NCBI GenBank assembly: GCA_000002445.1 | Contig: CP000067.1 | Span: 64,001 to 128,000 of the forward strand | Length of the DNA: 64,000 nucleotides | DNA from: Trypanosoma brucei | Lineage: Eukaryota | Direction of reading: 5' to 3' | In this document: positions 14,295-63,181 of the stretch, in pieces | Layout: every line of letters starts with the position of its first letter | Numbering within the stretch: position 1 is the stretch's first letter | Translations under genes and position numbers: made by a program | The notes under the pieces: model-generated | Databases searched by the model: none | What the model was told of the DNA's origin: nothing | What the model saw: only the letters and a program-made list of their open reading frames with translations

Positions 14295-16501
14295 GTCTCT
14301 TATTATAACAATAATAATAATTATTATTAACTTAACTTAACTTCTATTACTTTCCTGATAATAAAAATAACTAACTAACGTAATGCATATTGTTGCGGTG
14401 GTTGATAAAGAATAGGAGGAGGTGGTAAAATAGAAAAGTAAAAGGGGATGAATAGCACTCACGTACGCAACACCGGTTATGTTGTGTCTCCCTCTTCGTC
14501 CTCTCAATTCAAGTTAGCAAAACAGAAACACGCACAAACACACACACATATATATATGTGAAACCTTACATTCAAATATAAGAAATTATAATATGGAATG
14601 TTATGCATCATTAGTTGTCACTACTTATTGCATAAAATAATAGAAAAATTAATTGCATCACGTGTATGTTTCTTTAGTGCCTCCTCTAAGAGGGAAAACT
14701 AAAGTGGTAACATTTGTCTGTTTAGTTTGTGTAAACTTCATATAAACTAACATACGGAAATAAAAAAATTAATAATAGACAGCTAATTAAGAAACGCGTC
14801 ATCGCATCACATTCCTTTAATAACTAACGAGAGAAAAAAAAATAGTAGGGTTTTCACAATAATGGATGTTAAAAGATTATGTGTAACAAAATTAAATGAT
14901 ACCCTATTTACTTTTTCGATAATATTCACTGGTAATATAAATCATACAATTTCAAGCACTGAAGGCAAAAGGTCCACAGGCTACATATTCATCATGTCAC
15001 ATGTGTCCGTATACCCTGTTAAACAACTTTCGTTCACTCACTCAATCATAGTCAATGCTTCATAAACAAAGTACGTCTTTTATTATGATCTGAAGGGAAA
15101 CTTATTATTATTATTTTTATTAAATTGTCTCGTTCACAATTCATATCCATTTCCCTCCATTCCACAACTTATACATGGACGTTTTTGAGAATGCTACCTG
15201 GAGTGCAGTGTGCAATTTATTAACAGTGAAAACAAAAAAAAAACATTTAGAAACTAGCGGTTCTCACTGCGGAAGAGCAACTGCAACAACAACAAAACAT
15301 CTTCCGCCTTTGGGTTTTGACAAATCAAAAGTGTATATTAGGACTGAATTAATAAAATACCTCATATTCCCTTTGTATGTTCTCATTTGGTTGTCATTTA
15401 AACTACGGGTTCCGTTGTAGCATATACATCGCTGAATTTTAAAATATATATATTTCGCTTCAACAAATAGTAACAACTATCGTGCTGGAAGGGACAATAA
15501 GTTAATGTATTTTTTTTTTGTTTTCCACATTCGTGGTACAGTGTTTGACCTCATCTCCTCTCTTCCTCGTGGAGCTGAGTTCACCAGATGCCGTGGCATT
15601 CACAATATTTTGTACGCACGAACTTTACCTGAAAATAATAAAGGAATGAAAATGATAATTCGCCGCTTCAAGATAATGCGAGTGCAGACACGACAAAAAC
15701 TACCGCTGCGCCTCAAAAAGGCACATCACGGCGTGGAGCCTTTAATGCAGTTTCTGTCAAATTTATCGTTAACGTTATTTCTTTCTTTCCATGGGGGTGG
15801 CGTGGCGATGCCGGATGTCGCTATCGTATGCATCATGGGGCAGCAGCTGCTGAGGGAGATAGAGAGGAAAAAAACGTATTTTTTTTTGTTCATTGCATTG
15901 AGCTTTACTGCCATTCGCTGACGATCCATTTCGATCATTCCAAATCGTGTGTTGCAGTAAATCTTAAGCGATTATAATAATATCGCATCCACGGTATGTT
16001 TTACACTGAAAAGAATAAACCACACCTGCGCTTAACATGCTCGCGGCTCCCTCCCCTCCATCATCCATGTTTACTACATTGTATTTCAACTGCAAACTAA
16101 TTGCCTAACTACTGAAGTGTTTGAGCAATGCGCCACCACACAAAAACAGAAAAGTGCTATGGAGGCGCTTGCATTTTAGTTGGACACAAATTGTCTCACT
16201 TTCAAATTCTGCAAGCGCACACACACGCAGATACACATAAAACATACGTATTCTTTCCAACACTTTTTGGAGGCACCTAAAGAAAAGTTATGATACAAAG
16301 GAATTACCGGGTCACATGAAAGAGTGCATAAATTGAAGTGCAAACAATGTTTCAACAGTAGAAATCGATACTTTTTTTTTTGCTGCTATCGTTAAAGGTG
16401 AAGTCGAACAAGATAACGACACGCAACCCATCGTGATACTGCGGCCCTTTGTTATTATTTATTATGTACCGGTGTCCTTACGTTGACAAGAGAAAGCGTT
16501 T

Positions 16502-16528
16502 CCCCCCCCTTTTTTTTGGGGGGGGAGA
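16502..16528. repeat. Homopolymer palindrome C9-T10-G8 (a potential hairpin with a C:G stem and T loop).
   Basis: Read directly: tccccccccc tttttttttt gggggggg at 16501..16528, in the non-coding gap between the RHS-like array and the HECT gene's 3' end. Confidence 0.8.
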
Positions 16529-16880
16529 GGAGTTAATGGGGGACTCCACAAGACTCAGTAGCTTTAATGGCGCAACTATAATCTTACATTCCAACAACCG
16601 CCGCCGTGAGGGCGGAGTCACTGACAAAAAAGCATGATTTGCACATGAATGGCAGTTGAGGTCTTTGCCACGACTCTTTACCTTGCACATACGCTCCAAA
16701 CAAAAAAAAAAATCACCACCCCCTTAGCTATTGCAACACTCGCTAAAGTCGTTAAACCATACAAAGATGTATAGAAGGCACATATTGCCATACAGATGTG
16801 GTTTCATGCTTTAATCGAATGAAATTCACGCTCTTCATATAATGATGAAAAGGCGCTCTCCCCCGTTTACTGCGATGCAA

Positions 16881-19800
16881 TTAGGCGTCCAAAACAATGT
16901 GCTCTTGTGCTAGCCCGTCAGTATCGATGGCTTCACAGTGCCGGATGGCATACAAAATCCGGTCACGCATAACATCAATTGAACTGTAGGCGGGTATACG
17001 GAGTGTAAAGAAACAAGTATTACTGGTTGGAAGGGAGTCACGGGTCCCTCCCCTTTTAACTTTGATGTTTTCCTTGAGCGGCAGCCTTGTTTGTCCCGTT
17101 GTAAAGCGGAGAAGCAGCATCCGGTCTTTATCACACATAGTTTCAATAACTTCGTCAAACATTTGTGAATCGTTTGAGGGGAGAGAGACCTCACAAACGT
17201 CACGCAGTGCTTGACAAGATAACTTAGGCGTCCCACAAATGATCAACTCCACTTGCTGCCAGCGGAAGGCATTGAGTGTGTACAAGGGGATTACTTGACC
17301 GAACCCATGCCGAATATGGCTGATCACCACATCATACTTGTGAACTTCGATGGAGGCAATATGTTCTGCGAGTATTCCCGCAGTACGAAGATCCACAGGC
17401 GGCAATTCCTCCCGCATTCTAAGGTGAGAATTTTCACTACAGAATCTCAACCAACTCTCCTGTAGGCCTGGAAATCTCTCCTCCAGCTCCTCAGCCGTCC
17501 GCTCTGCTAACGCCTCCGGTGTTAATTGCCTCATTATGTCACGATCCATGGCCCTCAGGTCACGCAGTGATGTTTCCTCGCTAAGTAAGAGTTTCCAAAA
17601 CAGTGGTGGAAACTCCACGGCGAGGAGATCTTTGGTAATAAAACACGCTGCGAGAAACTTCCCGAAAAACTCGAACATGGGAAACAGCTGAAATTCAAGA
17701 GCCATTGTTGCATTTGGCATCACGGCCAACTGCCCATCACAACCGCAGTCCTTAAAGAGGGGATTCTGTTGGAATTTCCCGCTTGGGTGTGTTGACATAA
17801 TCTCTGTCGCAAGCTGTGATAGAATATCGCGGTAAGGTCCCCCCACGTCCGTAGATCCAAAACCGGCAAGCTTTACGGTGAACATGGGCGAGACATAGAA
17901 GATAGAAATCGGACTTCGCTGAAGCTGCGCGAACAACTGTCCGAACACGGAACGCATTAGCGTTGGGTAAAAACCGTAGCGCACAGAGGCCCGGGCGTGC
18001 ATTGTATGAATGGTAACTTTCCCTTTGTGCCCCGTGCGATTTCTGAAAGGCCGCATTGTCTCATTTTGGATTTTTTTTGAAGACTCTGCAGAGCAAAGGC
18101 TCTTAAGCTTCTTCCACATTTCAAAAAGTTCTGTGCTGCGCCGAATGTCAACTACCACAGAAAAAACAGCCGTCAGTGTATCAAATATTTGTAGACGCTT
18201 AACATATGGTACGAGCCGCTCAATCGGAACATCGTTCCCCAGGACGTCAGCACCAAGGAAGGACAACAAGTGAGTATATTCCACTAAATCATGGGAAGGA
18301 ACAGTCAACGACGCATCACCGTTAGGGGAAACAAGCAACTTCTCTGATATCGAAAAGGTTTGACAAAACAGGGACAATTCAGCATAAAATTCGAACGATT
18401 GCGCGACAACCTCCGTGTCGAGGCGATGGGGATGTTCCTGGAACCTGCTGTAGAGTTGGGACACGTCCATACCAGTAGATGCTTCAGTGAGAAGTTGCTC
18501 ACCATGAAACGTTGCGTCTTCCCTTCTTTCCGCGAAGAACACCGGAAGTGCCAACATTTCGTTAGGAAATGTCTCAAATCGAGTAGTTGTTTCATTTTTC
18601 GACTCCCTCTGGAGATTAAATATAACGGCTTGCTCATGATATAAACACGTTACCAGAACAATGTCGCCACCTTTTGCTCTCACTTGCAATGGCTGCGATT
18701 CTTTTTTACGGCTTAGACAAAGATGTATCTTTCCATTTGGCTTTATGAGGTAACCACATGACGGTAACAAAGTGCTGGCCGACGACTGATCCTTATCTGA
18801 CGTACCTGCTGCTAGGGAACCCGGTAGTGAAGCATCCATGTTCCATCCAACGACAACATTTCCACATCGTGCAGAGTTCAAAACTACTTCGAATTTTTTC
18901 GAACCGAATGTACATCGAAACGTTTGGGAGAAGACACCGTAACAGCTACAGTACCCCTCGGGTGATGTTGGGCCGGTCAGTAGCTCAAAGCTGATACGGT
19001 GTGACTCCTGTTGCCCTCGCGTGAAAGCCTCGGGTAAAGGCCGTGGTGGTTTGGATGTAACCGCTTCGATGGCCAACTTCGTGCAAATGACAATGGCATA
19101 CGGTACACAACTCTGCCTCCCAGGAGCTGGTAAACTGGGTCGCTCCAGTTGATAACGCTGCAGAAGCTCACTCACCAGCAATATACCCAACTGTACAAAC
19201 GTACAGGACATCTTCCCCCTCTGACACATGCTACTTATCACAGCTAGAAGTGGAGCAAGTGATGCGCAAAGGGCTTCATGTGATGGCAGCGGGCAATTGC
19301 TCATTTTAAGCAACTGAAGCACGCATCGCAGAGCAACATTTCTTACCGCACGTACATGTGCCGTTGCGGTGCGAAGCAATAAAAGCATCAATGTTGATCC
19401 GAATGATGTCGACAGAAGATGGATGACGCCATCAAGGCTGAGCGACACATAAATGAGGTTGACGCTAACTTCCACGTTTTCTGCACTTTGCGCAGCGAAT
19501 GGCGCCGCAAGGCATGCGTAAGCGGCCGCAAGCAGAAAAAATGAGGATCTGCGGACCTCCGCCCGAACCAAAGCAGTGAGGGAGGACAAATCATTCCGCA
19601 GTGTAGTGTACGGAAGCAGATGTTGTAGTGTCTTGAGTGTATCCGATGAATTGCAACTCATGATGACGGTACCAATCAGTTTCTTCGCATACGACACCAT
19701 GGCCTCTTCAACTTGTGGTATAAGACTCGACTCACCACCACTTTGAATTCCTATAGCTGGTGTATTCCATGAGTGCTGACCGAGAGACCCCATCCCCTGC

Positions 19801-22800
19801 GAAACATTGGGTGAGATGCGGTCAATCATCAGTTGGGTCCATATTGTATCCATTGCACTGCGTTGAACGGGTGAATCTTCCTTGTGCAACACACGCCAAT
19901 GCACGACTTTGACGGAAGTACCGGGAGCAGAGAGCGTAAATGAAAGCTGCATATCTGCCGGGCAGTCCCTCCCTTGTAACACTTCGTATACCGTCTCCCC
20001 GTTCACCACCACAAGAGCGCGTTTCGCCCAGGGTATAACGCGAATGTAAAGTCGAACACATTTGACGGAAGATGTCGGCAATATGAGCGATTCACCATGA
20101 ACAGGAATTATCGGGATGGGTACGTCCACAAACCAAGCTGTTGGGGGATGTTGAAAAGTAACCCGCGCGGGAAACTGCACGGAGGTACACACCAGGAGCT
20201 CTATCTCATGTAACTTGAGTCCCTCGATCACTGGTTTTGTCACGGTGCACGATTGTGGGCCAATACTTGAGACGTGTTGAACACAACCGTTTGAAATCGT
20301 GACGTGTTGTGGAGAAGCTGAGAATGTCACCTCTTCCTCTACCCACGGTTGTTGTCGCTGAAACTTCAGCAGCAAACGGCGTCGGTGGTTTTGCCTTTCC
20401 AAGATTGGTGACAAGTCACGTTCGGCATCCTCCTTTGTCTGGGGTACATCACAAAAAGGTAAAGATACTGCGGAGACATCGCTACGGTAAGTGACGCAAG
20501 AAGCAACTGAAAACTTTGGTGTTTCATGGGGTACCGCGCAGCACTTGAGAGCGAATCCGTTAAAGAGAAGGTTGTGCTCAAGCGGCACACTTGTATCATA
20601 GGAGAAAACGGCAGTGTCATCCTCAAACTGAGTAAAATCGCAGTTGTAGCTCCTCGCGTTTACGAAGACACTAAGGGGGAAAATATCTTCGCAAGTTGGA
20701 ACAGGGCCGTAAACCAAAAATAGCGCCGCCTGCGAGAGATCGTCCTGTAATTTTTTAACTATCCGGTATCCACCGTCCTCTAATGAAGTTACACAACGTC
20801 CCAACTCATCCACATAAATAAAGATGTGCTTCTTTCCGTCTAATGACTCGACCTTAGAAAGGTCCTCTCCGTCAGTGCCCTCCGACGAACTCACAAAAAG
20901 CGAGGAGCCCTGTACACTGCTTATCTCCTTTACGGAAACTATGCATGACGTCCGAATCGGATCTGACACCCACCAAAAAAAATCACCTTCAGTGGTGAGA
21001 CGATCCGTGACTGCACACTGGTTACAGATCCGTCTGTTGAACTGAAGTTTGCTGCTTTGCATGTGCGGGGGGTTTAAGCTTCCTAAAGACAGGTAACGGC
21101 CGCAGATAACTCCGCGGAGATCATCCTCCAGTTGCCTCCAGGCAGGCGAGTCATCGAATGATACTCTAGAAACAGTCTCCCACTGCACCCATTCCATTCT
21201 GGTTCCTCCGAGAAAAATAAGCCGTTGTTCGCCGCTTTCACAAAGGATTAAACCACGCCCTAACGATTCGACCGTTACGGGCCCTCCGACAGGTCGATTA
21301 AATTGGAGATCTCTCGCGTTTACGCGTTGGCATAGGTAACTCCGATAACCGCATGACTGCGATGGAATCGTGTACGTAATTCCTCCATGAAGAAGCTGCT
21401 TCTCCTTCTGAATGCTTGAAAATGGTAGCGTACATGTAGTTACCCTCCCCGCCGTAATTCCAATATATTTATCCTCCAAAGCAACATTTGACAACCCTGG
21501 TCTTCCGTCCTCCGACACTGTGTAGAACATGATACTACTGTGGTTTGTGGTATGAAGAAAGAAAGCCACATGCTCCCCTGGAGAGATGGTTATAGACTCA
21601 AACCCCTCTACTTTCGCTTCAACGCCTCGTGCAAGCTCCATATCCCTTCGCATGACAACTTGCCACTCACCGCCTTGCTCTTCAACTCCTCTGAAAGTCC
21701 CATTACGCATAAAGAGAGTTACGGTCGCGGTAGATGTTGTGTCAGAGACAAAATACACCTTTACAATGTTCACCTTATTTCGTTTCGCAATAACATCAAA
21801 CATAATCCCGCTGCACGAGTTACCAGGAATGCACGCTTGGCGGCCCGTTTGAAGAAATATTGTCTCCTCTCCGGCACTCTTTTTGGCATCGTCTGCAAAC
21901 TCCCTTAGTTGATCAAGAATGTATGAAATTGTCATATTACCCTTTTCCAGCATGCCTGCAGCGGACCGGAAACCTTCCTCACATATTAGAAAGGTGCTGA
22001 ACATACGAAGGAGTTGGGCACAGCTCCACAAATCACCCTTCATATCACGTGTTCCTTGTCGCTGAAGCTGTGGGGAGGCGAAATGATCGTATCGACGTAA
22101 GGTATAAACATTCCAAACTGCGCATGTGACCGTGGCTCCTCGGCCAGTTTTCACATACACATTTTTCGGGTGGATGTTGCCGTGGATTAGAGAATGCAGG
22201 TGCCAGTGCTCCAACGCGGCAAGGAGGGACATAACAATGGATTTCTGTTGTTGTTTGGAGAATCTTTCCATGTCTAAGGAGTTAAGAGTGCCGTCAAACC
22301 AGCCATGCGTAATAACACCAAAACTTTTTGAGGAGTCCAATGACTGCATTATGTCCTCTTGGTACATTACACACGGATGCTTTGTTACTACGTTAAAGGA
22401 CGTAACAGTTATTTCGGGGTCATCATGGCTAAATATGTGCAGTGTTCGCTTGCTTGTTGTGTTGTCGTCAAAATATAGTAAACGAACCATAGAGCTTCCA
22501 CCGACCCTACCAATAACCTCGTATGCGCTAGGCAACCGTATAAAAGTGTCCCCTTCATCTGCGGTTCCAGGAATGAAAACGTGCGGTTTATCCAGCGGTG
22601 ACGACAAAGCATCCACTACCCTCCGAACCGCAGTTTGACCGCAAAATTCCTCAAGCTTTTTGTCCTCAACTCGAATCATCTCACGCGAAAAAGCACCCAC
22701 CTCCGCGAGTTGCTTAAGAGCATTTGACAATCTGTAAGCAAGTTTCGAGTTCCCGCAATGGTCACACCAAATGAGTTCAATGGCAGTCACACGATCTGAA

Positions 22801-25800
22801 GGTAGACTGTAGAGTACATGTCGAAGTACGGTGTACGTTGAAACCACTACGCGGAACGGTATTCGGCGAAGAATAGTCGGTGTTATTGGGTGTGATGCCA
22901 GCACCACGGAAGGTGGTGCTCTAAACTTTCCGGCTCCCAATGCACCACCGTAAAAGGTAGCAAGCGTGGCGGACGCATTAGCATGGTCCAAACGAACAAA
23001 GGGAGACACGCTCAGATTGGAAGGTATATTGTGAAAGACAACCCTTGGGGACTCATTGTTACGTGCTAAAGAAAGGGTTCCATTGTCACGATCAAGAAGA
23101 AAATGCAACTTTGTTCCCGCAAGAAACATCGTGTTGCCTGACGAGTCAATAGGGGGAATTCGTTCCTGTGTGGGTAAAGAGTCGCCGTCGAGAACATCTT
23201 GCACTATCCAAACCTGGTCAACTTGCTCACGAAGTTTCACGAAGTGCGGCTCCAGCTGGTCGAAGGTCGATACCACAATTCCAGCAAAGTGCCCAGAACC
23301 AAGTGAATCACCTCCGGCACGGTCACTGCGGGTTATTTGCACAACAAATCCCGACAAACCAACTGTTGGAAGTGGGGACCCAATCACTGCTTGCCCGGAT
23401 GCATCATTACAGCTTGCCGTGCGACCTTTGTTCGAAATGACTACTTTGGACGGATTACACAAAGTCCACACGGGGGTGTATTCCACAACACCCTCAGACC
23501 AGCTCCTTGATCTTGTGGATATGCCTCTGTCGATCACCTCTCGTGGTGAATGGAGGTAGAGGCTAGTAGGATGAGGCCCTACGTTCATAACTGCTATCTT
23601 CGGTGAAATCCCCTTCAACGACGAGCCAACGTGCTCCCTGTATGAGACATGGCAGCGAACGTTGTCATCCTCATCGTACACGACAAAATCGTTATCAGCT
23701 GTGAATGCGAGAGTAAGTTCTTCGTCACGTGCGAGGCTGAAGCTGCGGTGAATCACACTGTTTCGACTCCCTTCCCAGTTTATCTTAAAAATAGGTCTAA
23801 ACAGTTGGACGAGCACTTCCAAAAAGAAAACATTGGCACTTGTCGCAGACACTGCCCCCAGCTTCCAGAAGCGTGGCTTATTCACTGGCCAGGCACCTGT
23901 GCTGAACACTCCCTCAAGCTCGCATGCTTCGCTTGGTTTCAATTCTACTGTGTCATACCCCCCTGCCCAGCGCCACGGATGTGACACCGAACTCATGAAA
24001 GGCGTAGGTGGTGGGAACGTCATCTCACAAATTGAGAGACGCAAACAGTCACAACCCCTTCTCTTAACGAAGAAGCAATACTGCGAGGGAGCAAACACTC
24101 CTAACTGCTCGTGAAGCGGTCCTCCGTGAGCTGCGTAATATGTTGCAGGTTCGTAGAGGATATCCTGCTCGATATCATCACCAAAAACAATGTGCAAAGA
24201 GACTTGCAACAGTTTGGGGCGTGATTTGCTGCTTAAACGTAGTGGAAGATCGGTGACGAACGCAACTCCCCAGGAGTCCCCGAGGGGAGTAAACAAAAGG
24301 GAGACAAACGCAGCCAGATTTTCATTATATACAAAGGGACAGGCAAAGCTGCAGCACTTTTCGTTCCATCCGTCTTCGTGAAGAAGCTCCGGTGATAACA
24401 TGTATTCTACGCTACCTGAATCCAGCGCTCTACCCGAAATCGAGTCGTGCCTCCTTGCTTTGATAATTCTATCAGCGGCAAAATTTGTCGACCTTGTGTG
24501 GCGCACCAAAGACGATGCACACGCGCTGCCAGCATCAAAGGACAAGTTCCACCGTTGAGCAATGTACCGTGCTAATATGCTAATCAGATGTTCTTCCTCC
24601 CTTAAAGCAGGAAAATGGACAGTTCCTGTCGCCTGGCATACGCTTTCGACAGCAAAGGGTTGGTGGCACCAGCCACACTCAATAACAGGAACTAAACAAT
24701 CTACTGGTACCGTGACACAGACGGGAGTACCACCCCTACCAACCTCTACCGCGACTTGGGATTTAATATCGGGATCACTGACTAGACGCACCAGCTCCCC
24801 GGCGGAAAACTCCCCTGACCCCAGTGCGATGACAGCAAGATCTCCCTTGCACAGCGAATTGAAGTATGCCACACCATTCACACCAAACGGTAGTGTCACA
24901 ACACCATCACCCAAGGCGTCTGTAAGATTCCCGTTTACCACACCACTCAACAGATCTTCAGATATTTCTTGCCTACCAACGTTTCCCGGTCGCGCCTTCA
25001 CAAGCTTTCCAAGGGATTCAATCACACCAGTATCTTCAAAGGGTTGCGTAACCGAAAACGGCCCGCTGGCAAAAGCCACTAGCGCTGTCAGAAGGCGCGT
25101 AATGACAAACCCCTGTACTGCGGGGAAAACAGCCATGTTACGTCCCAGTAAGCGCCGTTGAACAATAAGACGGTAGGTGACACGCCCACGAAAGGCACGA
25201 GGTTCTGATGGTATCTCCAAGAAAGGTACAATCCCCTCGCTTTTCTTTCCAACATAAATTGTCAAAACCCCGTCGCTCTCGAATTCGTCGCCCACATCGC
25301 CAACGTGCCCATCGCTGCTGTTATAAAACCGGACTCCACAGCTGGATGTTGTGTTGACATACAAAGCGTACATCTGATTCGCCCGCAGTTGAAGATTGAG
25401 TGGACCCGGAGAAAAGGTCTGCTTATCTGCCAGGTAAAGGTACCGAGTTGCGACCTCTTTCCATTTTGAAGGGACCTTTTCAGCGCCCTTCATACTTCCC
25501 TCCTTCCAGAAAACTCTGACATTTATGTTATCCGCTGTTGTTTGAGAAATGCAGAATATTTCTTCCAACAACACATCCTGCTTGCTGCGGATGTCGAACA
25601 TGATGCCGTTGTATGATGCTGAATTGTTTTGGCTGAGATGCCCACCCGTCGATATAGCGGAAAGAACCTCTGACACGCTCATGGGGTTTGCAGGTACGGC
25701 AAGAATATTACCCACAAGTCCTCGGACAGAGAAAAAGGTATTGCTTACACAGTGACCCTGCTCGCTGCAGGTAAAAAAACATCGTATCCGCTCCCTTCCT

Positions 25801-28800
25801 CTTTCCCTTACCATGCCCATAGTTCGTTCACAGACAGCACTGAAGACATAAGTCCCCCTTTTCATTTTAAGTTGGAGTTTATTCATTACGATTCTGTGTG
25901 AGCACTCTTTCGGGAGCAATACCTCATGATGTACCCAGACCCAATTCCTCTCTCTCGATGTCACACCCTCGGTAGAGTCGTTCACGTCAGCGCAATACAG
26001 AGAAACATGAAAGCTCATCGGACCTATAGTGTGCCCCACGTAGGGTTGAACAAAAACGGGTAGTAGAAGCTCTCGCAGCACAACCGGACCATCAAAAACA
26101 GTAACAACAAATTCAGCTCTTTCCGAAAGAGTAGACATTTGGGGGCGACTGACCAGTGGCAGATGATCGCTGCACCCATCATTATTCCTTTCATCCCACT
26201 CTCGCCACACAACAGAATCAGTTTCCTCCACTGCGAGAGCCTGTGCCTCTTCACTACGCACGTACACTATGGAACCGCAAAACCCGCAAGAGTTGGAACT
26301 AACATCAGTAAAGGGGGTGCTACTCTCGCTGGTGCGCCCCATCAAAACTGTGAGGGTACCGTCGGAGTCCATTTCCGATGAAACGGCCCCCGAGCAACCT
26401 CCCTCCTTCGCGTAATGGCCGACTCCAAAGTTGTGCGTAGCGTTGATGTATAAAGCGAAAGTTGAGCCGCCTTCAATACGGATTCCGTGAAACGTAACGG
26501 AGAACTGACGACCCGCGCGCATCTTAACAAAGTTAGAGAATATCTTCGTCCACGAGCCGCTAGTCCGTTCATGCATCTGGTGAGAACCCTTCTTGAAAAA
26601 TACTTCCACCCGATGGCGTCCCGAAGCGTGGGTGAGAACGGTCAAACCGGTCAGCACAACCGAATCCTCAGCTCGAACATCAAACATAATACCATTGTAG
26701 GACTCGTTGCGTAAAAGCCTGAATTTTGTGCTCCCCACAACAAACACACGCGTGACGCTGCCATCGGGGGCTTTCAGAGCGGGATATGGGGGTTGTAAAA
26801 CTTTGTGTGGTCCCTCGTTGTCCAGCACATAGATGCTGTTTTTATCCAGGGAGAAGCAGACACGCTTATCCGTTTCGTCGCATACGTTGACTGTATTGCC
26901 CCCTATTGACGTGACAAGCCCACGTTTGGGCTGAACGAGGCTTCCGGCTTTGAAGGCCACCTTAGCACCCACTACAATAGCGGCCGCATCAGCGGAAAGC
27001 GCACAGTGGCGAACATCGCGTTTCCGCACAACGTACTCTCGCTTTCCTTGGCACGGGCACAAACACTTCACAACCCCAACTCCAGAACCACATGTGCGGA
27101 CGACCCTCCCCAGATGAGCCTTTCCAAATAGTGGCGGCACCACCGTTGCAGTCATTCCACGCGTCGAAAGGTAAGCAACAAGCCGAGGCCGATGCAATAG
27201 AGTCTCCGGAGGGATCGTATATGTCGCTATCAGCAGACCGTTGCGGTACGCGGCCACTTCCCTGTCCACTCGCTCGACCGTTATTGTGTCGCCAATAGAA
27301 AAGAGTATCCCAGTACCCTCCTCTGCTATACGCGGCGCAACCTTCCAAGCGGTTCCGCATTGAGCCATGGTGTAGCTAAGAGTGTCGAAGAGAAGATTGT
27401 TGCAGCCCATAATGCCAATGTCAGGACCTATACAGTTACTTGGAATGAGTCCAACGGCCACTGAAGAGGAATTTATATCCAAAGCATCATCATTGACGGA
27501 AACCCATCCACCTGTAGAAGTAACCTGGCATGGTGTGCGCGTGAACACAATCACACGCAAATTCGTGTCTTCTTCAATGGGGCAGTTGCACGTCGCCACG
27601 GTCGGGTGAAGATGAAGACCGCGAAGGGAGGAACTCAGCATAATGGATCCCTTTGTCATATCAACTGAGAGATATACACTGCGAGGCGTAGCCGCTTTAG
27701 TTTTGGAGTCACTCCATGTGCCCCAGATGTTACCGTGTGCTATGCGGCGCTCAAACTCCGCGGAAGTCATGACGCGGTAATCACACTCTTCGCTCGTTAC
27801 ACCCACAAAAATCGCAGAGGCATCAACTGGCGACGGCTCAATATCCTCATCAAGAAAAAGCATACTAACCACAACTTTTGAGCTGTTAGGAATCACAGTC
27901 GGGCTGATCAAGATCATGTTACTCTTAATTGATACACTTGTTTGCAGAAGGTTATTTACACACCACAGCAAATCGAAGGAGTGTAAACCTCCAAATGAAA
28001 AGCCGTCAACACCAGCAACGTGGCTAACGGTCACATCAACACGGGAGTCTCCATAGGTGGAAAAGTCATCTAGCACAGCAAAGGCAGCGCCATCAGTCGC
28101 TATACAGGTACTTCCATCGATTTGGACATTAACACTTTTATCACGCATCCATGCAAACGCTGCGGTTTCCATAAAACCAACAATGCTGCCAACGACCAAC
28201 TCCTTCGGGCTGTGCTGCGACAAAAGATAATCCGTAAGGTTATCGTTGTGATCGGTGAAGTGAAACATACATTTTGGGTAACGCCAACTATTGAAACACT
28301 CAGAGCACAGACAAATTCCACCTTCCCCCTCGTACCACGCCTCCAACATCTCCGAACCGCACGATGCGCACAGCACCGGAGGAGTGCTACGTGTCAGGGC
28401 ACTAATGTTGCTGGGGGGGTATGTGTTTCGCGCAGGGAATGTGTGGCAGTCAAGAAATGAGAAGACAACAACCGAATCCGGTCCAGTAAGCACGAAGGGC
28501 CTCAGCTTTTTCTCTTCAGGTATCTTCTCAAACAAAACACCAAAATCAACGCACTTACCACCACGAACACGAGAAAATGAAGCTGTTCCTTCCTGCCTAT
28601 TCACTTTGATAATTACTACATCATCCGAGTCAAACAACAATTGCCCGGCACTGTATATCATACCAGGCTCCACGAAACAGTTCGTGTTATTAGTTCCCTC
28701 TGAATCACGGTTACATAAGGCCCAAATATTTTCGCACCGTACTATCGCCTGGGGTTCTGCCGGCTCCTCTGTTTCTGCCGTTACGCCGATGTACATAAGC

Positions 28801-31800
28801 GTCCCTTTACTCTCTGCAATTGTGATACTTACGGCAAAGGAGAATACGTCCTCAAGCACAACGTTGCCTCGCACCGCTGAGTAGTGCGCAGCCGAGGTTA
28901 CACCGATCGACGGGCTTGGTGTGAACAGACTTTTCGTGGAGAAACGTCGGTCGATAACAACAGGTGTCCTCGACATGGGTTGTTGGCCGTTAACCATGCG
29001 GAACGAAGAAGATGTTGATTGAGTCGCTGAGACGGGAGCATTGCGCCTCAGTAAGGTCACAGAGCCTTTTTGGTTAGTTGTTTCATGACGTATTATTTGA
29101 AGAGCAGTATATTCCATATTCATTGCATCAGTAATTGTTTTAACAAAATTTTCCGCGATGTCCATTCTCTGCTCCTTTTCATCGTTCATTAGCGGCACGA
29201 CCGCAGATGCTTCAAACAAAATTCTTCTTAACCCGCTGGTTAACCAGCCACAACACCTCAAACTCTCTCCCTCCGAAACCGAAAAAAGCGCAGGCATTAC
29301 GAAGGAGGGCTTCAGGTCTGCAACATCTGTAGAGAATTGCCTCCCATCCGGATCGGCCTCAAGGTAAACCACAGCTCTTGATGCAGATTCGGATATGGAA
29401 TCTACAACGACGGGACCGTGCGTTTTATGTTGGCAGAAGAGTCCACTTCTTTCACCACCCAATATGGCTAGTGCGACTATACATTTTTCGAGGTCATAAC
29501 TAGACCGAACAAAGAAGGAATATATCCAATCCGATATCGCTGGGCCGAAGTATGGAGTGACGTGGAGTTGTTGAAGGACACTAACCGCCACACCCCGTCG
29601 CAAACTGGAAAGCAATAATTCACATGATTCCTTTACCTGTGAGGGGTCAGCGATAATATCACAAACCGCGTCTTCGTTGAAGTGGAACACAAATGGATAT
29701 AAATCATCGACACGGTGAATGTTTGCGAAGGCCAATCCGATGCGCACCATGTTTTCTCTGTAGTATGTTATCTCCCCTACATCAGCGTTTAGTTCAACCC
29801 ACACAACTTCATCACATCCGTAAACCCTCCGCTGACTGTTACGGGGAATGGTTTGGCGGCGCAGAAGGAGGTGTGGCACCTGATCACCGTCGTCAGCGTC
29901 TTGCAAAATGTAAACGTCATCCCTAGAAATTAAACTTGCCATAGTGGTAACAGGTGTATGCCCATGTGAGAGACCGATGTAATAGCAACCCCCCAGCGAT
30001 GCACCAACTCCATGGCCCATTTGCATTTGGCGGCGGATGCGGAAACCAACTTTATGAGTCCCTCTTGCAGGTAGTGGCTTCTCCCCATAAAAAGCACCCC
30101 CACCGGTGACTCGGGTCCGACCACCCGTCCACCGTGGAATGAAGGCGCGTTGCGAACACTCGGGATAGATTTTTGCGCGTGCAAGCTCCGTAAGAGAATT
30201 CACAATGACATCGGGGGACATGGAACCTCGTAATGCCTCGACAGCCTCTGCAAAACAGTCCTGCCGTAGTGTACGTGCCATGTGGCCAAGGGAGCGAGCC
30301 GCACGTGCTTTCACCCAGTGATCATGAGCCTCGCTTAATGTAATCGAACAAATTCGTAATATTTCGAGGTGGGCCGAGCGACTAACTAGACTGCAACGAA
30401 AACTATCAATAACGACGTTAACTATGCGAAAAAGTCTCGTTAGTAAAACACCACCAATATGGAGTCTTTGCCTCTTGAGTAAGTGAGTGCTTTCATCACT
30501 GTATAGGTGTTTGAGACTCGTGACAAGTTCAACAACAACATCTCTAAGAAATACGGAGGCTTCCTCAAGCAGCGCACAAATAGAATCCCCATTCGCATTG
30601 AAGCCGGGTTGGCCAAGCCGTTGTAGATTCTTCAAGCATACGGTTACGAGATAATGCACGGCAATAAACGAAGCATCACTAATCATAACAGGCGAAACGG
30701 TTTGAGTCCGACAAGAGCTGTGCAGAGAAGCCATATCAAATTCGAACGGAGCGTTTTCTCCGAAGTTCACTATCAGTTTGACGAGCATTCCATCCGTCTG
30801 CACGGCAACAAATGGTATAATGGTGGAAAAGGTACATTCGGTAGCAATTCCTAGAAATTCCCCGTTGCGAGTAAAGAATAAACTGGAAGATGGGGCCATA
30901 ATGCCGCAGCCAATGACGTCTCCGACCGACCAAGGAGTCGAAAATTCCACATTAGCGTTGGAATACCTTACAGTTCCATCTGAACAAAAAGCTGCTGAAC
31001 AATCCTTTCCGACTGACTCACACGACGAAATGGAGGAACTTGTAACACCAATGCAAACAAAAACCTCCTCATTGAGAGCAAGTTCGAGAGTTATTTCAAA
31101 GTACAAAACCTCCGCCATATCAGCCAACACACACCCACCAGCGAGAGCTGCATAGCAATCCCGTTGAGCTGGTGACATATCAAATGCCTCCTCTGCTTTA
31201 AAGGCTCTCCACTGATTACGTGCTAAGAAACATATGTCGGCACCTTCAACATGTACGCCCAGTGTATCACCCTCCACTACTGTAGCACCATCCGCTGCAG
31301 GCTGTAATGAATTTGGTACAATGACGCTACGATAAAGCAAATTAAATAAGCCACGATCCTGTAAGAAACGGTGCCACGCAATATCAGTGCTGCTTCCATT
31401 AAGTGGAGTGACTACCGTATCTGCAATCGGTGCGAGAATATAGGTTTTAAGAACGCGGAAAACTTTCGACGGATTTATTGCGGAAAGGTCCACACTGTCC
31501 CATGGGTGGCAAAGAACGGCACACAGAGAAAGCGCCTCCATACCCCTTGACGCCTCGCATTGCAGCTTGGCCTCAACTATTCGCGAAAAATTGCGGTGAA
31601 TAACACAGTGAAAAAAGCTACAGGTTGCCCTCTGGAGCTCCAGTTCCCGCTGGAACCCACAACCAATAATTGGCTCAATGTAGTGAACCTCCGTCAGATC
31701 CTCTAAAGTAGCCTCGCTATAACCAGAGTTAGTACGGACATTATTGGAGGCTTCGTTGCTGTATTCACGGCGCCTCGATCGTATAAACTCCCTGTAGAAA

Positions 31801-34800
31801 AGGTGTGAGTTCACGATTAACCACGACATATCCTCATCTAGTTGGTGAGAAGACAACAGTTTTTCCTGAAGCCTGAGTACGGCCTTGTTATTGCTGGCGT
31901 ACCTTGCTTTTTCAACAAGTGCCCTTACCAAATCCTCGTTCGTAACACCGTTACACCCATTAAGAAGAAATTTGAACACTAAGGTTGAAATACTCTCCGT
32001 ATTAGTTGCTACAAGCTCACTGATCGCATCAGAGGTTAGCAGCGGAATGCGCGGCCGGTTCATGCTCCCGACTTCCTCATGACAATGTTTTGAAAGATCG
32101 GATAAACTCGACGTGAAACGACCTAGGGCACTTACATTCCAACTTTCTGTTCTCTCGTGTGAAACGTGTGCGGATTTGCTCAAAGTTGTACGAACATTTG
32201 CCACCGAATGCACACTCGTTGGGGATGAAACACGAGTGACTGGTTCTTCTGTTTGCTGCTGTTCGGCCATAGCGGACTCCAACCGATCTCGTGGGTTGAG
32301 TGTATCAAGCAGAAAGCGCGCTCGATCTAGCATTGCTTTTTCATCGCCTTGTTGCAGGGCCTCCAGTATGAGATATGATTTCTTGCGCATAAAGTCGAGG
32401 GATTTCTCCACATGCTTTAGCAACGAAACGTTTTTTGTCCTCCGCAAGTGCCAGGCATGGGCCGCGCAGAATGCGCGCATAACATACTCTAAGCGATCCT
32501 GGTAAGGAACATGTTTCTTGCGGTACAGTTCTTGCCACTGAGAAAGAAGATCACCAAAACCTTCAAACAGGTCAGTTAGTTCTTTCTGGTCTTCTTTGTC
32601 TAGTAGAACTTCGTCACTCATTCCGGGGACGTTATGCTTCTTTAGAACTTCCTCTGAAAGGCCCCCGCGGAATATGCTGTTCTGCGGAAAAACAACGGTA
32701 TCAGGTAGGCCTTTGAGAAGCAGCTGCTGAGTGTTATGAAGAATTGCCTGACCTAAAGCAAGACATATATCACTAATCCAGTAAGATAACTCTGTTTGTA
32801 GCATCACACGCGCATTAACGGTAATAAGTGACTCTTCCTTTTTGGTATTTGTGACGGTAACCTCCACCCTACCACCGCACTCGATGGTTAGGTGCTCATC
32901 ACGCATGGTGACAAAGGTGCGCCGGCCTTCGTTTGTTACAAGGGCAACCCTTACCTTATTGGTTTCCCTTGTTGTCGGATGTTCATGCAATACCTCAATG
33001 CTGCGCGCGTAGCGTAAGTCAAGGGATGTCGTGTGTGTGCATGCGGCAGGAACAAAAATTCGATGTGTTTCTGTCAAATTGTGGTTCACATATTGTGCTG
33101 GAAGTATGTCGGCGTAAGGATACAGGACATTACGAGTCTCGTTGAGTAAAGTGAGCACGTCTCTGGCAATGCTGCTGTCGAGTAGTAGATCTACGAGATA
33201 ATGAACAACAGGAAATACCACAACCCCAATGGCAGTTTGTTTAAGCAAATTCAACTCTTCAGTCCCACCGGTATGCCCCGACGCCACGTTAGAAAAGAGG
33301 CCATTGAACAATCGCATTGTTCCCTTGCACAGAGAATTTAGCAACGCTATGGCCACCAGATGCCACTGGGGGTTGGCCTTTCGTGACAAAATACTGAGAA
33401 GGGTTGGGAGCAAGACACACGAGGGTCTGAATGACGCCCCTTTTCCTGTTAAAATCAACTGCGATTCCGCCAAGCACGCTTCCTTCAGACGATTTAAAAA
33501 CGCCATAAACGGTTTCTTTAAGTCCTTTTCCAATACGCTAGTGACCAACGACGGTATATAGTCGGATACTAAAAGGTCTTTTATGTCCGTCAGTCTTTCC
33601 GTGCTCAAAATTCTTTCTAACAAGTAGTCATAGCTGACGCACTCCATAACTAAAACACGGTGCAGCTCCTTAAAGACAAACTGAGTCTCCATCAAAATAC
33701 CCCTGTCTTCGGGTTCCAACCTGCTAAGTGTCTCAAACATATCCACAATAATAGCCACCAAATGTGGCGGGCATCCCCTCTTAATCCAAGTAAGTTGCTG
33801 AGTCAGCAGCCGACCACACACACAAAGGAGAAGTAGGGAACTGCTGTTCCTCCCAAGAGGTTGTTTGACGCGTAATATTAAGTCCTGTGAAATGTCAATA
33901 AGCCTAGAAACGGTTCGAAGTGATGTGCTATTCCAGGAAAAAAACTGAGGGGTGTACTGTGTGCCGCCGCAACACCTTCCTTCGGCGACCAACACGGCAT
34001 TTAGTCGATGCAGAATAAGGTTCGAGAGTGAAAAGGGTGTCACGATGCCTTTATCACCTTCGAGTTCCAAGAATTTTTCGCTCACAGTTTCTTCATCACG
34101 CATACTTTCAAGTTCTCTCACATGCATGGCGGGTGGTGCTTGCGTATCCACCCAACGAAGACTCAGGCCACTACTTACGTCACAGATAACACTATACATA
34201 CGGCTTGTGAACCCGCATAGAAAATATAGTTCCTTTGGATGAACGTCTGCGGTACACTGCTCCAAAATGCGACCATTTGCATCCATCCAAGTACAAAATC
34301 CATCCTCCACAATGGCAGTCTCGAACGTGTTTGTCACTACGTAGTAGTCTCCTAATGGTGTGTATGGAATTGCTTCCTTCTCTGTAACATCACAGCCAAA
34401 GGGTACTTTGGGGGGTGGACCCCACGAAATGACGCCCTTCCACGTGATGGCGCCGTCACTGCTTCTTAGGCAGCAACCAGAACCCTCATTCATCTTGAAA
34501 GAGCACAGTAAACCACACTGGGAAGCAGGTGAGAGTCTCCCCTTAGCAGAAGTAAGCATATCATTGATGCATTGAGCTCGGTGCCAGATTTGAATATTCG
34601 AGATAAATCCACTGAACGAGCCACGGAGTAGATCTACGGAACCCGTTGTGGAAGTGGAAAGATTGGCCACTTTGCACCTTACAGCACAACTTTTAATCAT
34701 CACCGCATCTTTGTAGACATTCCAAGTGAACACACCATTTGTGTTTTGCAGTGTTGCACTCCAAAGGGCCCACTCACTCCGCAACGGTTCATGAACCTCA

Positions 34801-37306: not shown

Positions 37307-38563
37307 TCAAGGAAGCCCGTTGCGGTTTCCAGTTGCTAAGCTCCTTTCCATATTCTCGCCTCCTCGTTGTGTCGCATCGGAGTTTGCGAGGAGTGGCGTA
37401 TCACCGCACGGGTAGTTCGCTCGCGGGCACCATCTCCAACGAACGTCCGACAAGGCGTACACAAGGACACCGATAATAATCAAGACGTAGGCTGCGAAGA
37501 AAACAGGCGTGGGGTAAATGCGAAAAAAAACCACATTCCATATGATCCCGTATACACTTGTCGCCAGTAGAGATACGTTACCGAAGACTGCGCTTTTCAT
37601 GAAGAACAGAGCTGGGATGCCAGTGTACACAAGCAACATCGAAAAACCAAACAACATCTGATAGAGCCAGTCCTCGGAAGTCCACACTTGCGTTCGCGAG
37701 TTGAAACCGTCCCACTCAACAACAAAAAACTGAATAGTAGCTATAACAAGAGCGAAACAAGACATGAAAGATATGCTTTCAATAACGGGTATGTAGGCTG
37801 GTACGTCCCTTGACTCCCCCTCCCCGGCGACTTCCGTTGCGGTCAACCGCGGGGAGACGTTTACCGTCTCGCCCTCGTGCTTGTGCTCGTTGATGGTTGT
37901 TTCGCAATTACTCTCAGCTATTCGGTCTCGGGGGGTCGAGCCACCACCGGCACTTGGAAACTGAACATTGGAATTGCCCGGTTTAATTAAATACTCCATG
38001 AAAACATTCGACACGGCGTACAAGCTTGCCGCGAGAAGGCATAAGAGATCGCCCTTAAGGGCATTCGGACCAACTTCAGTGCGGGATATACCGTCAGCAT
38101 CTAACAGGATAAGAAGGACCAGACCACCAGTTGCCACAACGCACCCAGTTATATGGGTTATGGAAAACCGCATCTTGAGGATAAAGTAGCTCAAAACAAG
38201 CACACAAGGAATGGAAAAGCAGATAAGTAGCTGAGCCGAGACAAGGTCCGTGTACTGGAAAGCTTTCACAATAACAAAGTTCGCCTGCGAATCTACAAGC
38301 CCAAGAAAAAAGTACTTCCATGGCCTGTAGAGGAGCGTAAAGTTTTTGAACGTTTCATGTCGATGCCGAAGAAATAGAAAGAGGTACAGTGGGCCATAGA
38401 ACGTGAAGATGAATGCGTATGCAGTTAGGGACTGAAGGACTGGATAGCTAGCGTTGTTGTTGATCAATTTGGTGGTCGACACTCCCGTAAAAGAGTTTAA
38501 AAGAGCTACAAGCTGACCAAACAGCACATACAACGGAAGCAACTTCAATGCCGACTTCCTCAT
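37307..38563 (-). CDS. Multi-pass membrane transporter, SLC35F/DUF914-like (nucleotide-sugar transporter superfamily). The track start at 38566 is TTG. The ATG is at 38561..38563.
   Basis: About ten hydrophobic helices. The segment LLICFSIPCVLVLSYFILKMRFSITHITGCVVATGGLVLLILLD resembles the SLC35F1/F2 core, with a hydrophilic acidic loop in the middle. Confidence 0.6.
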   Translation of the reverse strand: MRKSALKLLPLYVLFGQLVALLNSFTGVSTTKLINNNASYPVLQSLTAYAFIFTFYGPLYLFLFLRHRHETFKNFTLLYRPWKYFFLGLVDSQANFVIVKAFQYTDLVSAQLLICFSIPCVLVLSYFILKMRFSITHITGCVVATGGLVLLILLDADGISRTEVGPNALKGDLLCLLAASLYAVSNVFMEYLIKPGNSNVQFPSAGGGSTPRDRIAESNCETTINEHKHEGETVNVSPRLTATEVAGEGESRDVPAYIPVIESISFMSCFALVIATIQFFVVEWDGFNSRTQVWTSEDWLYQMLFGFSMLLVYTGIPALFFMKSAVFGNVSLLATSVYGIIWNVVFFRIYPTPVFFAAYVLIIIGVLVYALSDVRWRWCPRANYPCGDTPLLANSDATQRGGENMERSLATGNRNGLP

Positions 38564-38939
38564 CAATGGCGTTCCCCCCCTGAAAATTGCCCTCCCTTCC
38601 CTGCTTTAGGTGTTACTAACTCGTAGGTAGAATCGTGAATACATACAAACGTGGAAAAAGAATTGTGAGAACAGTTGATTTAATGGAATAGCAGCAAACG
38701 AACCCTGAGGGAGGCTCAAAAACACACGCATGTGCATAATACGCAAAGGCACGCAACACAGTTCAAAGTTAGCAATGTGTGGTGACAGACTACGCCGAAT
38801 ATTATGCGAAAAGTTAAAGCGTAAAGGGGGAAAAAAAGGCGGCGCAACCGTTTGCGTTCCTCCTCGCTCGTACCCGAGCCATGTGCGGTGTAAGACAAAT
38901 GTAGTTACAAAGGCAGTACACCGGAAGGAAACACTACTC

Positions 38940-40079: not shown

Positions 40080-40322
40080 AACTGTAGCCAAACACCTGCT
40101 TTCTCACTCTGCGGTGCTACTTACGTCGATTCCATTGGCGCACACAAACACACACAGACGTGAGATTGATTATAGTGGCGAGGACGATACACAATAAATA
40201 ATGAGAGGGAAGTGGTGAATCGGTAAAAGGTGCGGAAGATCAGTTGGATGAAGCGGTCGAGGTGGGAGAAAAAGATAGGCGGAAGAACGTTTGCAAGGAT
40301 TACGAATGTAAGGAACATGCAC

Positions 40323-43995: not shown

Positions 43996-44003
<8 letters not shown>

Positions 44004-44028
<25 letters not shown>
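44004..44028. repeat. (AT)12 microsatellite.
   Basis: Read directly in the intergenic region 43398..44153. Confidence 0.9.
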
Positions 44029-44153
44029 CAAGAAGCAGTGATGCATATTCTCCTCCTTCTCCGCTTTTTTTTGCTTATAGTACATACGGTAACAAAGTCA
44101 TCTCAAAGCAACGCACGTGACAGAACGACCGATGCCTCAAAGCTTTCCGTCTC

Positions 44154-63092: not shown

Positions 63093-63181
63093 CCTTGGAT
63101 GTACGCAAGCACAAAGAAAGAGATGATAAAGAAATAGAAAAGAAGAAAAACTATAGAATTTACAGTTATAGAGGGGGGGGG
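63093..63181 (-). promoter_or_regulatory. Polypyrimidine tract plus AG, the presumptive spliced-leader acceptor region for TOR.
   Basis: Coding-strand sequence T6 C10 then CT-rich, ending ...tatag / ...caag immediately before the ATG. The plus strand shows G10 at 63172..63181. Confidence 0.6.

What the first reader, a model, noticed from the sequence alone, without database searches (positions are those of the whole stretch)
16881..36722. Giant 6613-aa HECT E3 ligase combining six SPRY modules, a zinc finger, a pseudokinase-like module and three copies of an unassigned NGIMFD domain
A 19.8 kb intron-less ORF is exceptional in size. The sequence shows a bona fide C-terminal HECT domain (catalytic Cys in TCFFTLRIPAY). 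It shows at least six SPRY/B30.2-like modules spread over about 4500 residues, and a CxxC...CxC..C cluster. It has a kinase-like segment whose catalytic loop reads HGNIHPKNVYV (Asp replaced by Asn, no DFG), so it is probably a pseudokinase scaffold. It also has three paralogous ~150-aa repeats starting YNGIMFD that I cannot place in any family from memory. A HECT ligase carrying an embedded pseudokinase and a novel triple repeat is, as far as I know, uncharacterised functionally. The repeats may be a new substrate-recognition or beta-sandwich domain.
Basis: partly seen in the sequence, partly recalled or inferred. Interest (0 to 1): 0.7.

Follow-up and report, generated by a model that had tools for sequence, protein, structure and literature searches.

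The report
Giant trypanosome HECT ubiquitin ligase Tb927.4.310
This is the already-annotated 733-kDa HECT ubiquitin ligase of Trypanosoma brucei (the counterpart of Leishmania HECT11), whose long substrate-binding arm carries a dead kinase module and three copies of a widespread but unnamed beta-sandwich domain whose predicted fold looks like the PHR domain.

Summary
The ORF is real: window 16881-36722, minus strand, 6613 aa, 733.5 kDa. It is 100% identical to T. b. brucei TREU927 XP_844181.1 / Q57UU4 ("hypothetical protein, conserved"), which synteny places at Tb927.4.310. Its L. mexicana orthologue is HECT11, whose null mutant grows as a promastigote but loses at least 20-fold fitness in mice.

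Confirmed:
- A C-terminal HECT domain (E 1e-42) with conserved Cys6570.
- A kinase-fold module. An orthologue profile hits 1465 PDB kinases, best E 1.6e-14. All orthologues lack the beta3 Lys, the HRD Asp and the DFG Asp, so it is an ancient pseudokinase.
- A conserved CxxC...CxxC motif.
- Three about 155-aa "NGIMFD" repeats, conserved about as well as the HECT domain.

Corrected:
- Only four SPRY modules are supported by sequence. A fifth is supported by a moderate-confidence predicted fold.
- The NGIMFD repeat is not unique. It belongs to a family of at least 3437 protein clusters, mostly secreted bacterial proteins, with no Pfam or NCBIfam model.
- A HECT ligase with a kinase domain has a kinetoplastid precedent (TKUL).

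Verdict: an unusual variant of a known enzyme class, of moderate interest.

The parts
16881..36722 (-). Complete ORF of the giant HECT ligase: 6613 aa plus stop codon, 733.5 kDa. It corresponds to T. brucei TREU927 XP_844181.1 / Q57UU4 and, by synteny, to Tb927.4.310.
   Evidence: define the ORF. Searches show 100% identity to P0274. Searches give the synteny and orthologue table. One search gives the mass.
30771..31136 (-). SPRY module A (aa 1863-1984).
   Evidence: Pfam SPRY E 2.6e-11, 44.1 bits against a cut-off of 26.3; also found by the iterated HMM.
29652..30098 (-). SPRY module B (aa 2209-2357).
   Evidence: Pfam SPRY scores 26.3 bits, exactly at the cut-off, as a partial match. hhalign to modules C and D gives 97-99% probability.
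28455..28877 (-). SPRY module C (aa 2616-2756).
   Evidence: Pfam SPRY E 1.1e-5, 25.9 bits. The T. rangeli orthologue scores 31.2 bits. hhalign results are.
28293..28370 (-). Conserved four-Cys motif, CxxC-x18-CxxCF..W (C2785, C2788, C2807, C2810). It is a probable single-zinc treble-clef or zinc-ribbon site.
   Evidence: The motif is present in all 8 orthologues aligned. Pfam gives only sub-threshold zinc-finger hits. Metal binding is inferred, not shown.
27498..27980 (-). Candidate fifth SPRY-like module E (about aa 2915-3075).
26253..26720 (-). NGIMFD / PHR-like beta-sandwich domain, copy 1 (aa 3335-3490).
   Evidence: This is among the most conserved regions of the protein.
25164..25634 (-). 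NGIMFD / PHR-like beta-sandwich domain, copy 2 (aa 3697-3853). This is the copy that was modelled.
22953..23393 (-). SPRY/NHR-like module D (aa 4444-4590).
   Evidence: Self-BLAST to module B gives E 8.8e-4. hhalign to B gives 99.3% and to C 96.9%. The T. rangeli equivalent hits Pfam Neuralized weakly.
21873..22550 (-). Pseudokinase module (aa about 4725-4950). Its catalytic loop reads HGNIHPKN at aa 4847-4854.
   Evidence: phmmer to a PDB CDPK gives E 2.9e-5. The orthologue profile hits 1465 PDB kinase sequences, best E 1.6e-14. Orthologue P0008 passes the Pfam PK_Tyr_Ser-Thr cut-off. The beta3 Lys, HRD Asp and DFG Asp are absent in all orthologues.
21363..21836 (-). NGIMFD / PHR-like domain, copy 3 (aa 4963-5120), lying directly after the pseudokinase.
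   Evidence: The same adjacency is seen in the fragment P0001.
16932..17723 (-). HECT catalytic domain (Pfam match aa 6334-6597). The catalytic Cys6570 is encoded at nt 17013-17015.
   Evidence: Pfam HECT E 7e-44, 151 bits. The TC[FSC]F motif is conserved in all orthologues.

Best explanation
This gene is Tb927.4.310, a single-chain 733-kDa HECT-type E3 ubiquitin ligase that is conserved throughout the Kinetoplastea. It is the T. brucei orthologue of L. mexicana HECT11. The inferred mechanism follows the established HECT pathway. The C-terminal HECT domain takes ubiquitin from an E2 onto Cys6570 as a thioester and then passes it to lysines of bound substrates. The roughly 6300-residue N-terminal arm acts as the substrate or partner recruitment scaffold. 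It carries four or five SPRY beta-sandwiches, a four-Cys zinc motif, three PHR-like 'NGIMFD' beta-sandwiches and a kinase-fold module. The kinase-fold module has lost the beta3 Lys, the catalytic Asp (HRD has become HG[N/H/A/R]) and the DFG Asp (now a conserved Cys) in every lineage examined. It therefore most likely works as a docking or allosteric module rather than as a phosphotransferase. It forms a conserved unit with the third NGIMFD copy. The NGIMFD domains are ligand-binding modules recruited from a large family that is otherwise found mostly in secreted bacterial proteins. What is shown: the domain identities, their conservation, the loss of catalytic residues and the predicted fold. 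What is inferred: ligase activity, the binding roles and the regulatory role of the pseudokinase.
Against: There is no biochemical evidence for ligase activity, substrates, zinc binding or nucleotide binding for this protein or any orthologue. The binding role of the NGIMFD domains rests on analogy: the PHR-like fold in other E3 systems, and an extracellular binding-module-like context in bacteria. Some pseudokinases lacking canonical residues still bind ATP or catalyse by other means. About half of the protein (aa 1-1860, 3860-4440, 5130-6230) has no assigned module.
Confidence: 0.75

Rival explanations
1. The NGIMFD modules are glycan- or polymer-binding (CBM-like) domains. On this view the ligase reads carbohydrate or another non-protein ligand on its targets, rather than peptide degrons.
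Against: The best structural neighbours are PHR domains from cytosolic E3 machinery, not CBMs. No sugar-binding residues were identified. Co-occurrence with hydrolases is seen in only a few members.
Confidence: 0.15
2. The NGIMFD repeats are genuine, highly divergent members of the PHR family (homologues of the MYCBP2/BTBD PHR domains), not merely fold neighbours.
Confidence: 0.3
3. The kinase-like module is an active atypical kinase or nucleotide-dependent switch that regulates the HECT domain, as the kinase domain of Leishmania TKUL does.
For: TKUL/HECT12 shows that a kinase domain can regulate a HECT ligase allosterically in kinetoplastids. The catalytic-loop Asn is present in six of the eight orthologues aligned, and a Gly-containing loop ('GRVGGSS') is present in T. 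brucei. The HGN loop resembles the LVHGN motif of the JAK pseudokinase domain, which was the top PDB hit. From memory, the JAK pseudokinase domain binds ATP.
Against: The beta3 Lys, the HRD Asp and the DFG Asp are all missing in all orthologues back to Prokinetoplastina. The module lies about 1400 residues from the HECT domain. The Pfam Pkinase score is below the cut-off in T. brucei.
Confidence: 0.1

Closest known systems
Leishmania mexicana HECT11 (LmxM.34.5390, 732.6 kDa)
   Same: It is listed as the orthologue of Tb927.4.310 and has the same size. The leishmaniine orthologue from Porcisia (P0006) has the same three NGIMFD copies, HGH pseudokinase loop and HECT end.
   Different: It is from a different genus. 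The knockout phenotype (loss in the mouse) and the ubiquitin sites are known only for Leishmania. I found no domain dissection in the papers I read.
Leishmania TKUL / HECT12 (LmxM.34.4000, 147 kDa)
   Same: It is a kinetoplastid HECT ligase with an integrated kinase-fold domain.
   Different: TKUL is small and has no T. brucei orthologue. A review describes its kinase domain as regulatory and targetable by a kinase inhibitor. Here the module has lost all three catalytic residues and sits far from the HECT domain.
PHR domains of MYCBP2/Highwire/RPM-1 and BTBD1/2/3/6 (Pfam PF08005; PDB 3gbw, 3hwj, 3no8)
   Same: They are the closest solved folds to the NGIMFD model. They are beta-sandwiches of about 150 residues, repeated within a giant E3 (MYCBP2) or found in BTB/POZ proteins (BTBD). 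From memory, the BTBD proteins act as CUL3 substrate adaptors.
   Different: No sequence-level relationship is detectable. MYCBP2 is not a HECT ligase (from memory it is RING/RCR-type). The NGIMFD family is mainly bacterial and secreted.
Large HECT ligases with SPRY or beta-sandwich recognition modules (HERC1 SPRY, HECTD3 DOC)
   Different: None of these combines four or five SPRY modules, three PHR-like modules and a pseudokinase (the last statement is from memory). At 6613 aa this protein is larger than all of them.
JAK JH2 pseudokinase domains
   Same: They have the same 'HGN' substitution of the HRD motif ('LVHGNVCTKN' in 7t6f). This was the best PDB hit of the orthologue profile.
   Different: This is probably convergence. 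From memory, JH2 keeps a beta3 Lys and binds ATP. Here the Lys and the DFG Asp are also missing.

Membership tests
HECT E3 ubiquitin ligases | A C-terminal HECT domain matching Pfam PF00632 above the curated cut-off. | tested here: met
   147-151 bits against a cut-off of 23.9. The match covers profile positions 25-301 of 306 at aa 6334-6597.
HECT E3 ubiquitin ligases | A catalytic cysteine in the conserved C-lobe motif. | tested here: met
   Cys6570 lies in 'TCFFTLRIPAYSS'. The TC[FSC]F motif is conserved in all 8 orthologues.
HECT E3 ubiquitin ligases | Forms a ubiquitin thioester and transfers ubiquitin to substrates. | not testable with these tools
   This needs E1/E2/ubiquitin assays with wild-type and C6570A protein.
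SPRY / B30.2 domain (PF00622) | A match to the Pfam SPRY model above the cut-off (26.3 bits). | tested here: met
   Module A scores 44.1 bits. B scores 26.3, at the cut-off. C scores 25.9 here and 31.2 in T. rangeli. The whole-protein score is 78.6 bits with 3 stretches. D is linked through hhalign at 97-99% to B and C.
   Four copies are supported by sequence. A fifth is supported only by predicted fold. Candidates F, G, H, I, J, K and N gave no support.
Eukaryotic protein kinase superfamily (fold) | Significant similarity to kinase domains across both lobes. | tested here: met
   The orthologue profile hits 1465 PDB kinase sequences. A CDPK is covered over positions 5-242 of 245 at E 3e-13. 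Orthologue P0008 scores 25.2 bits against the 23.1 cut-off for PK_Tyr_Ser-Thr. T. brucei alone is below the Pkinase cut-off, at 19 against 31.7 bits.
Active protein kinases | The catalytic triad of motifs: VAIK Lys, HRD Asp and DFG Asp. | tested here: not met
The module is therefore a pseudokinase.
PHR domain (PF08005) | A match to the Pfam PHR model or a PHR profile. | tested here: not met
   There is no PHR hit at E<=10 for the three repeats, or at E<=0.01 for 75 family members. hhalign probability is 7% and 1.3%.
PHR domain (PF08005) | A PHR-type beta-sandwich fold. | tested here: met
Zinc finger | Four conserved metal ligands with appropriate spacing. | tested here: inconclusive
   CxxC...CxxC is conserved in all orthologues, but every Pfam zinc-finger match is below its cut-off. 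Metal binding was not tested.

The most novel reading that the evidence does not exclude
The NGIMFD domain would define a large, still unmodelled beta-sandwich family (at least 3437 clusters) with a PHR-like fold. On this reading, an ancestor of all Kinetoplastea captured it three times from extracellular or bacterial-type proteins into a cytosolic HECT ligase. There, one copy fused to a pseudokinase, it would act as a new kind of degron or ligand reader, possibly for glycans.
Probability: 0.2. Interest if true: 0.6.

Novelty: new variant of a known kind. Interest (0 to 1): 0.45.

Why it matters
HECT11 is one of the few E3 ligases shown to be needed for Leishmania proliferation in mice. Its T. 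brucei counterpart is still annotated as 'hypothetical protein, conserved'. A module map now exists: four or five SPRY modules, a zinc motif, three PHR-like domains, a pseudokinase and the HECT domain. This map gives concrete constructs for substrate-trapping, truncation and ligandability experiments on a parasite-specific ligase. Separately, the NGIMFD family is very large, mostly in secreted bacterial proteins, and has no Pfam or NCBIfam model and no solved structure detectable by sequence. It is therefore a candidate for a new family entry, with a predicted PHR-like fold.

Tried and rejected
(1) Pfam on the three isolated repeats at E<=10, and Pfam plus NCBIfam on 75 family members, found no model covering the domain.

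(2) The family HMM against all PDB sequences at E<=10 gave zero hits.

(3) hhalign of the family against PHR profiles of 3 and 61 sequences gave probabilities of 7% and 1.3%, so sequence homology to PHR is rejected as not demonstrable.

(4) The search for more SPRY modules used an iterated HMM, a sliding-window hhalign scan of the orthologue alignment and targeted candidates E, F, G, H, I, J, K and N. Only F reached 20%, against module B. Orthologue profiles of regions N, H and E/F against PDB sequences found nothing relevant.

(5) The AF2 model of aa 2866-3212 was poor overall (pLDDT 58). Only its first module is usable and the second (F) is unresolved.

(6) The search for homologous proteins with the 45-sequence family alignment returned nothing, and the single-sequence query gave only 2 hits. 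The word-indexed tool is insensitive for this family.

(7) The afdb50 fold library was unavailable.

(8) The search for related loci with an alignment failed because no stretch was conserved enough.

(9) Cluster look-ups for 20 non-kinetoplastid family members gave no organism names. The eukaryotic versus bacterial split of the family is therefore unresolved.

(10) No paper in the library discusses Tb927.4.310 itself. Whole-word search found nothing and the only 'anywhere' match was Tb927.4.3100.

(11) Rfam and tRNA scans of the window were empty.

(12) An artefact or pseudogene reading is rejected. The ORF is intact, identical to the reference protein and conserved across Kinetoplastea.

Full report
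**The observation.** The window holds a single ORF on the minus strand from 36740 (TTG) to 16881. Its first ATG is at 36722, which gives 6613 codons plus a stop. All 12 ORFs of at least 300 aa in the window lie on the minus strand. GIMFD lies at aa 3344, 3706 and 4972. HGNIHPKNVYV is at aa 4847. TCFFTLRIPAY is at aa 6569, placing the catalytic Cys at 6570. The Cys cluster begins at aa 2785. The calculated mass is 733.5 kDa.

**Identity and context.**
- The neighbours are three RHS (retrotransposon hot spot) genes, an SLC35F transporter, a WD40 protein, an RRM protein, an Rcd1/CAF40 protein and a 2455-aa TOR kinase.
- Published gene identifiers place RHS3 at Tb927.4.300 (PMC7952579) and the SLC35F queuine transporter Qtp1 at Tb927.4.320 (PMC12207525). 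The ORF between them is therefore Tb927.4.310 by synteny.
- The translated ORF is 100% identical to T. b. brucei TREU927 XP_844181.1 / UniProt Q57UU4, named 'hypothetical protein, conserved' or 'B30.2/SPRY domain-containing protein'. It differs at 17 residues from the T. b. gambiense protein.
- Orthologues of 6096-6644 aa, plus fragments, come from T. vivax, T. rangeli, Porcisia hertigi (Leishmaniinae), the prokinetoplastid Papus ankaliazontas and unnamed assemblies. A 7728-aa relative comes from SRA run SRR22803237.
- S1 Table of Burge et al. 2020 (PMC7647121) lists Tb927.4.310 as the T. brucei orthologue of L. mexicana HECT11 (LmxM.34.5390, 732.6 kDa).
- In that study the hect11 null mutant could be made in promastigotes. 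It lost fitness in axenic amastigotes and lost at least 20-fold in mouse footpads.
- A 2026 preprint reports 14 ubiquitination sites on HECT11 and higher protein levels in amastigotes.
- The protein is thus annotated, and its orthologue has a genetic phenotype. I found no description of its internal modules.

**HECT domain.** Pfam HECT matches aa 6334-6597 at E 1e-42 to 7e-44. The TC[FSC]F catalytic motif is conserved in all orthologues. This end of the protein is the most conserved part.

**SPRY modules.**
- Pfam finds three stretches: A at aa 1873-1977 (44 bits), B at 2295-2350 (26.3 bits, at the cut-off) and C at 2629-2756 (25.9 bits).
- Module D (aa 4444-4590) matches B and C in self-BLAST. 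It matches them non-circularly by hhalign of orthologue sub-alignments, at 99.3% to B and 96.9% to C.
- An iterated HMM and a sliding-window profile-profile scan of the whole orthologue alignment find no more.
- The next candidate, F (aa 3060-3200), reaches only 20% in hhalign. Other candidates gave nothing.
- 'At least six' is not demonstrated.

**Zinc motif.** The conserved pattern across orthologues is CxxC-(about 18)-CxxCF..W, using C2785, C2788, C2807 and C2810. C2805 is not conserved. Only sub-threshold Pfam zinc-finger hits were found. A single structural zinc site is plausible but unproven.

**Kinase-like module.**
- In T. brucei the Pfam Pkinase score is below the cut-off (19 against 31.7 bits). 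Even so, phmmer against PDB sequences finds CDPKs at E 2.9e-5 over 167 residues.
- A profile of eight orthologues hits 1465 PDB kinase sequences at E<1e-3. The best is a JAK kinase at 1.6e-14, including its 'LVHGNVCTKN' pseudokinase domain. A CDPK is covered over positions 5-242 of 245 at E 3e-13.
- One orthologue (P0008) passes the curated Pfam cut-off for PK_Tyr_Ser-Thr.
Every orthologue has HG[N/H/A/R] in place of HRD and a conserved Cys where the DFG Asp should be.
The module is a pseudokinase that was already degenerate in the common ancestor of the Kinetoplastea.
- A HECT ligase with a kinase domain is not unprecedented in this group. Leishmania TKUL/HECT12 has an integrated regulatory kinase domain. 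It has no T. brucei orthologue.

**The NGIMFD repeats.**
- The three copies are aa 3335-3490, 3697-3853 and 4963-5120. They sit at the same relative positions in every orthologue.
- They are among the best-conserved parts of the protein, with identity fractions of 0.42-0.51 against 0.50-0.54 for the HECT domain.
- Orthologous copies are far more alike (62-74% identity) than paralogous ones (24-30%). The triplication is therefore ancient.
- No Pfam model hits them at E<=10.
- An HMM search of 1.84 billion cluster representatives found 3437 proteins at E<=1e-3 and 1275 at E<=1e-10. Most are 400-1200 aa long with 2-6 tandem copies.
- Of 75 members scanned, 23 carry a T9SS C-terminal sorting domain. 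Others carry GH53, M6-type peptidase, MAM or laminin-G domains. No Pfam or NCBIfam model covers the repeat itself.
- Relatives of one member lie in a Planctomycetota MAG.
- The family HMM hits no PDB sequence at E<=10.
- An AF2 model of copy 2, built with a 45-sequence alignment, is confident (pLDDT 93.1, pTM 0.89) and all-beta.
- Foldseek independently ranks the same three first: 3gbw at E 1.8e-5 and TM 0.57, the other two at TM 0.50.
- To test homology, I recovered the true PHR sequences from the PDB, collected 120 PHR proteins and ran hhalign. Probability was 7% with a 3-sequence profile and 1.3% with a 61-sequence profile.
- Conclusion: the repeat has a PHR-like fold and belongs to a large, separate and currently unmodelled sequence family. 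Membership of Pfam PHR was tested and not met.

**Mechanism.** The best-supported reading is a conventional HECT cycle at Cys6570, driven by a very long recruitment arm. The SPRY and PHR-like beta-sandwiches are the likely binding surfaces for substrates or partners. The pseudokinase, fused directly to NGIMFD copy 3, is likely a docking or allosteric element. Three rivals remain open, with lower weight: a glycan- or polymer-binding role for the NGIMFD modules, true PHR homology, and a nucleotide-dependent regulatory kinase-like switch. About half of the chain remains unassigned.

**Verdict.** This is a known, annotated ligase family member with an unusual and previously undissected module set, not a new kind of system. 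The most useful new points are the ancient pseudokinase, the PHR-like fold and very wide distribution of the 'NGIMFD' family, and the link to the HECT11 infection phenotype.

Noticed in passing
window 1-16900: There is a tandem array of three units of about 5.43 kb, 93-100% identical. Each unit carries an RHS (retrotransposon hot spot) ORF of 565-572 aa with DUF7578, RHS_N and RHSP domains, in AT-rich DNA (GC 0.30-0.39). It sits directly downstream of the HECT gene.
   Followed up: partly
window 37307-38566 (minus strand): This is an SLC35F-family transporter. By position it is Tb927.4.320, which was recently shown to be the T. brucei queuine/queuosine transporter Qtp1 (PMC12207525).
   Followed up: partly
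window 55854-63221 (minus strand): This is a 2455-aa TOR kinase with mTOR_dom, FAT, FRB, PI3_PI4_kinase and FATC domains. Upstream of it in the same transcription direction lie an Rcd1/CAF40 protein (53385-54341), a two-RRM protein (51494-52669) and a WD40 protein (48862-49863).
   Followed up: no
window 38940-40091, 41871-43397, 46516-47736 (minus strand): Three ORFs of 383-508 aa have no Pfam match at E<=0.001. The stretch 44001-46000 has lower GC (0.40) and a strongly negative AT skew (-0.20).
   Followed up: no
P0002 (834 aa) and loci L001/L002 (Planctomycetota MAG JACKGY010000004.1): This bacterial secreted-looking protein has three tandem NGIMFD-type domains followed by a C-terminal region that I did not assign. 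Two paralogous genes, 49-51% identical to it, lie about 24 kb apart on one contig.
   Followed up: partly
L003 (Logan SRR22803237 contig, gene at 2001-25187): This intron-less 7728-aa HECT/SPRY relative has three much more divergent NGIMFD copies (24-54 bits) and an 'IHGRISMRN' kinase-like loop. The source organism is not identified, so it may extend the family beyond the named kinetoplastids.
   Followed up: partly
aa 575-800 of the ORF (window 34323-35000): A conserved beta-rich region ends in '...GSFSGFISNIQIWHRA', which by eye resembles the end of laminin-G/ConA-like domains. No Pfam or PDB sequence hit supports this.
   Followed up: partly
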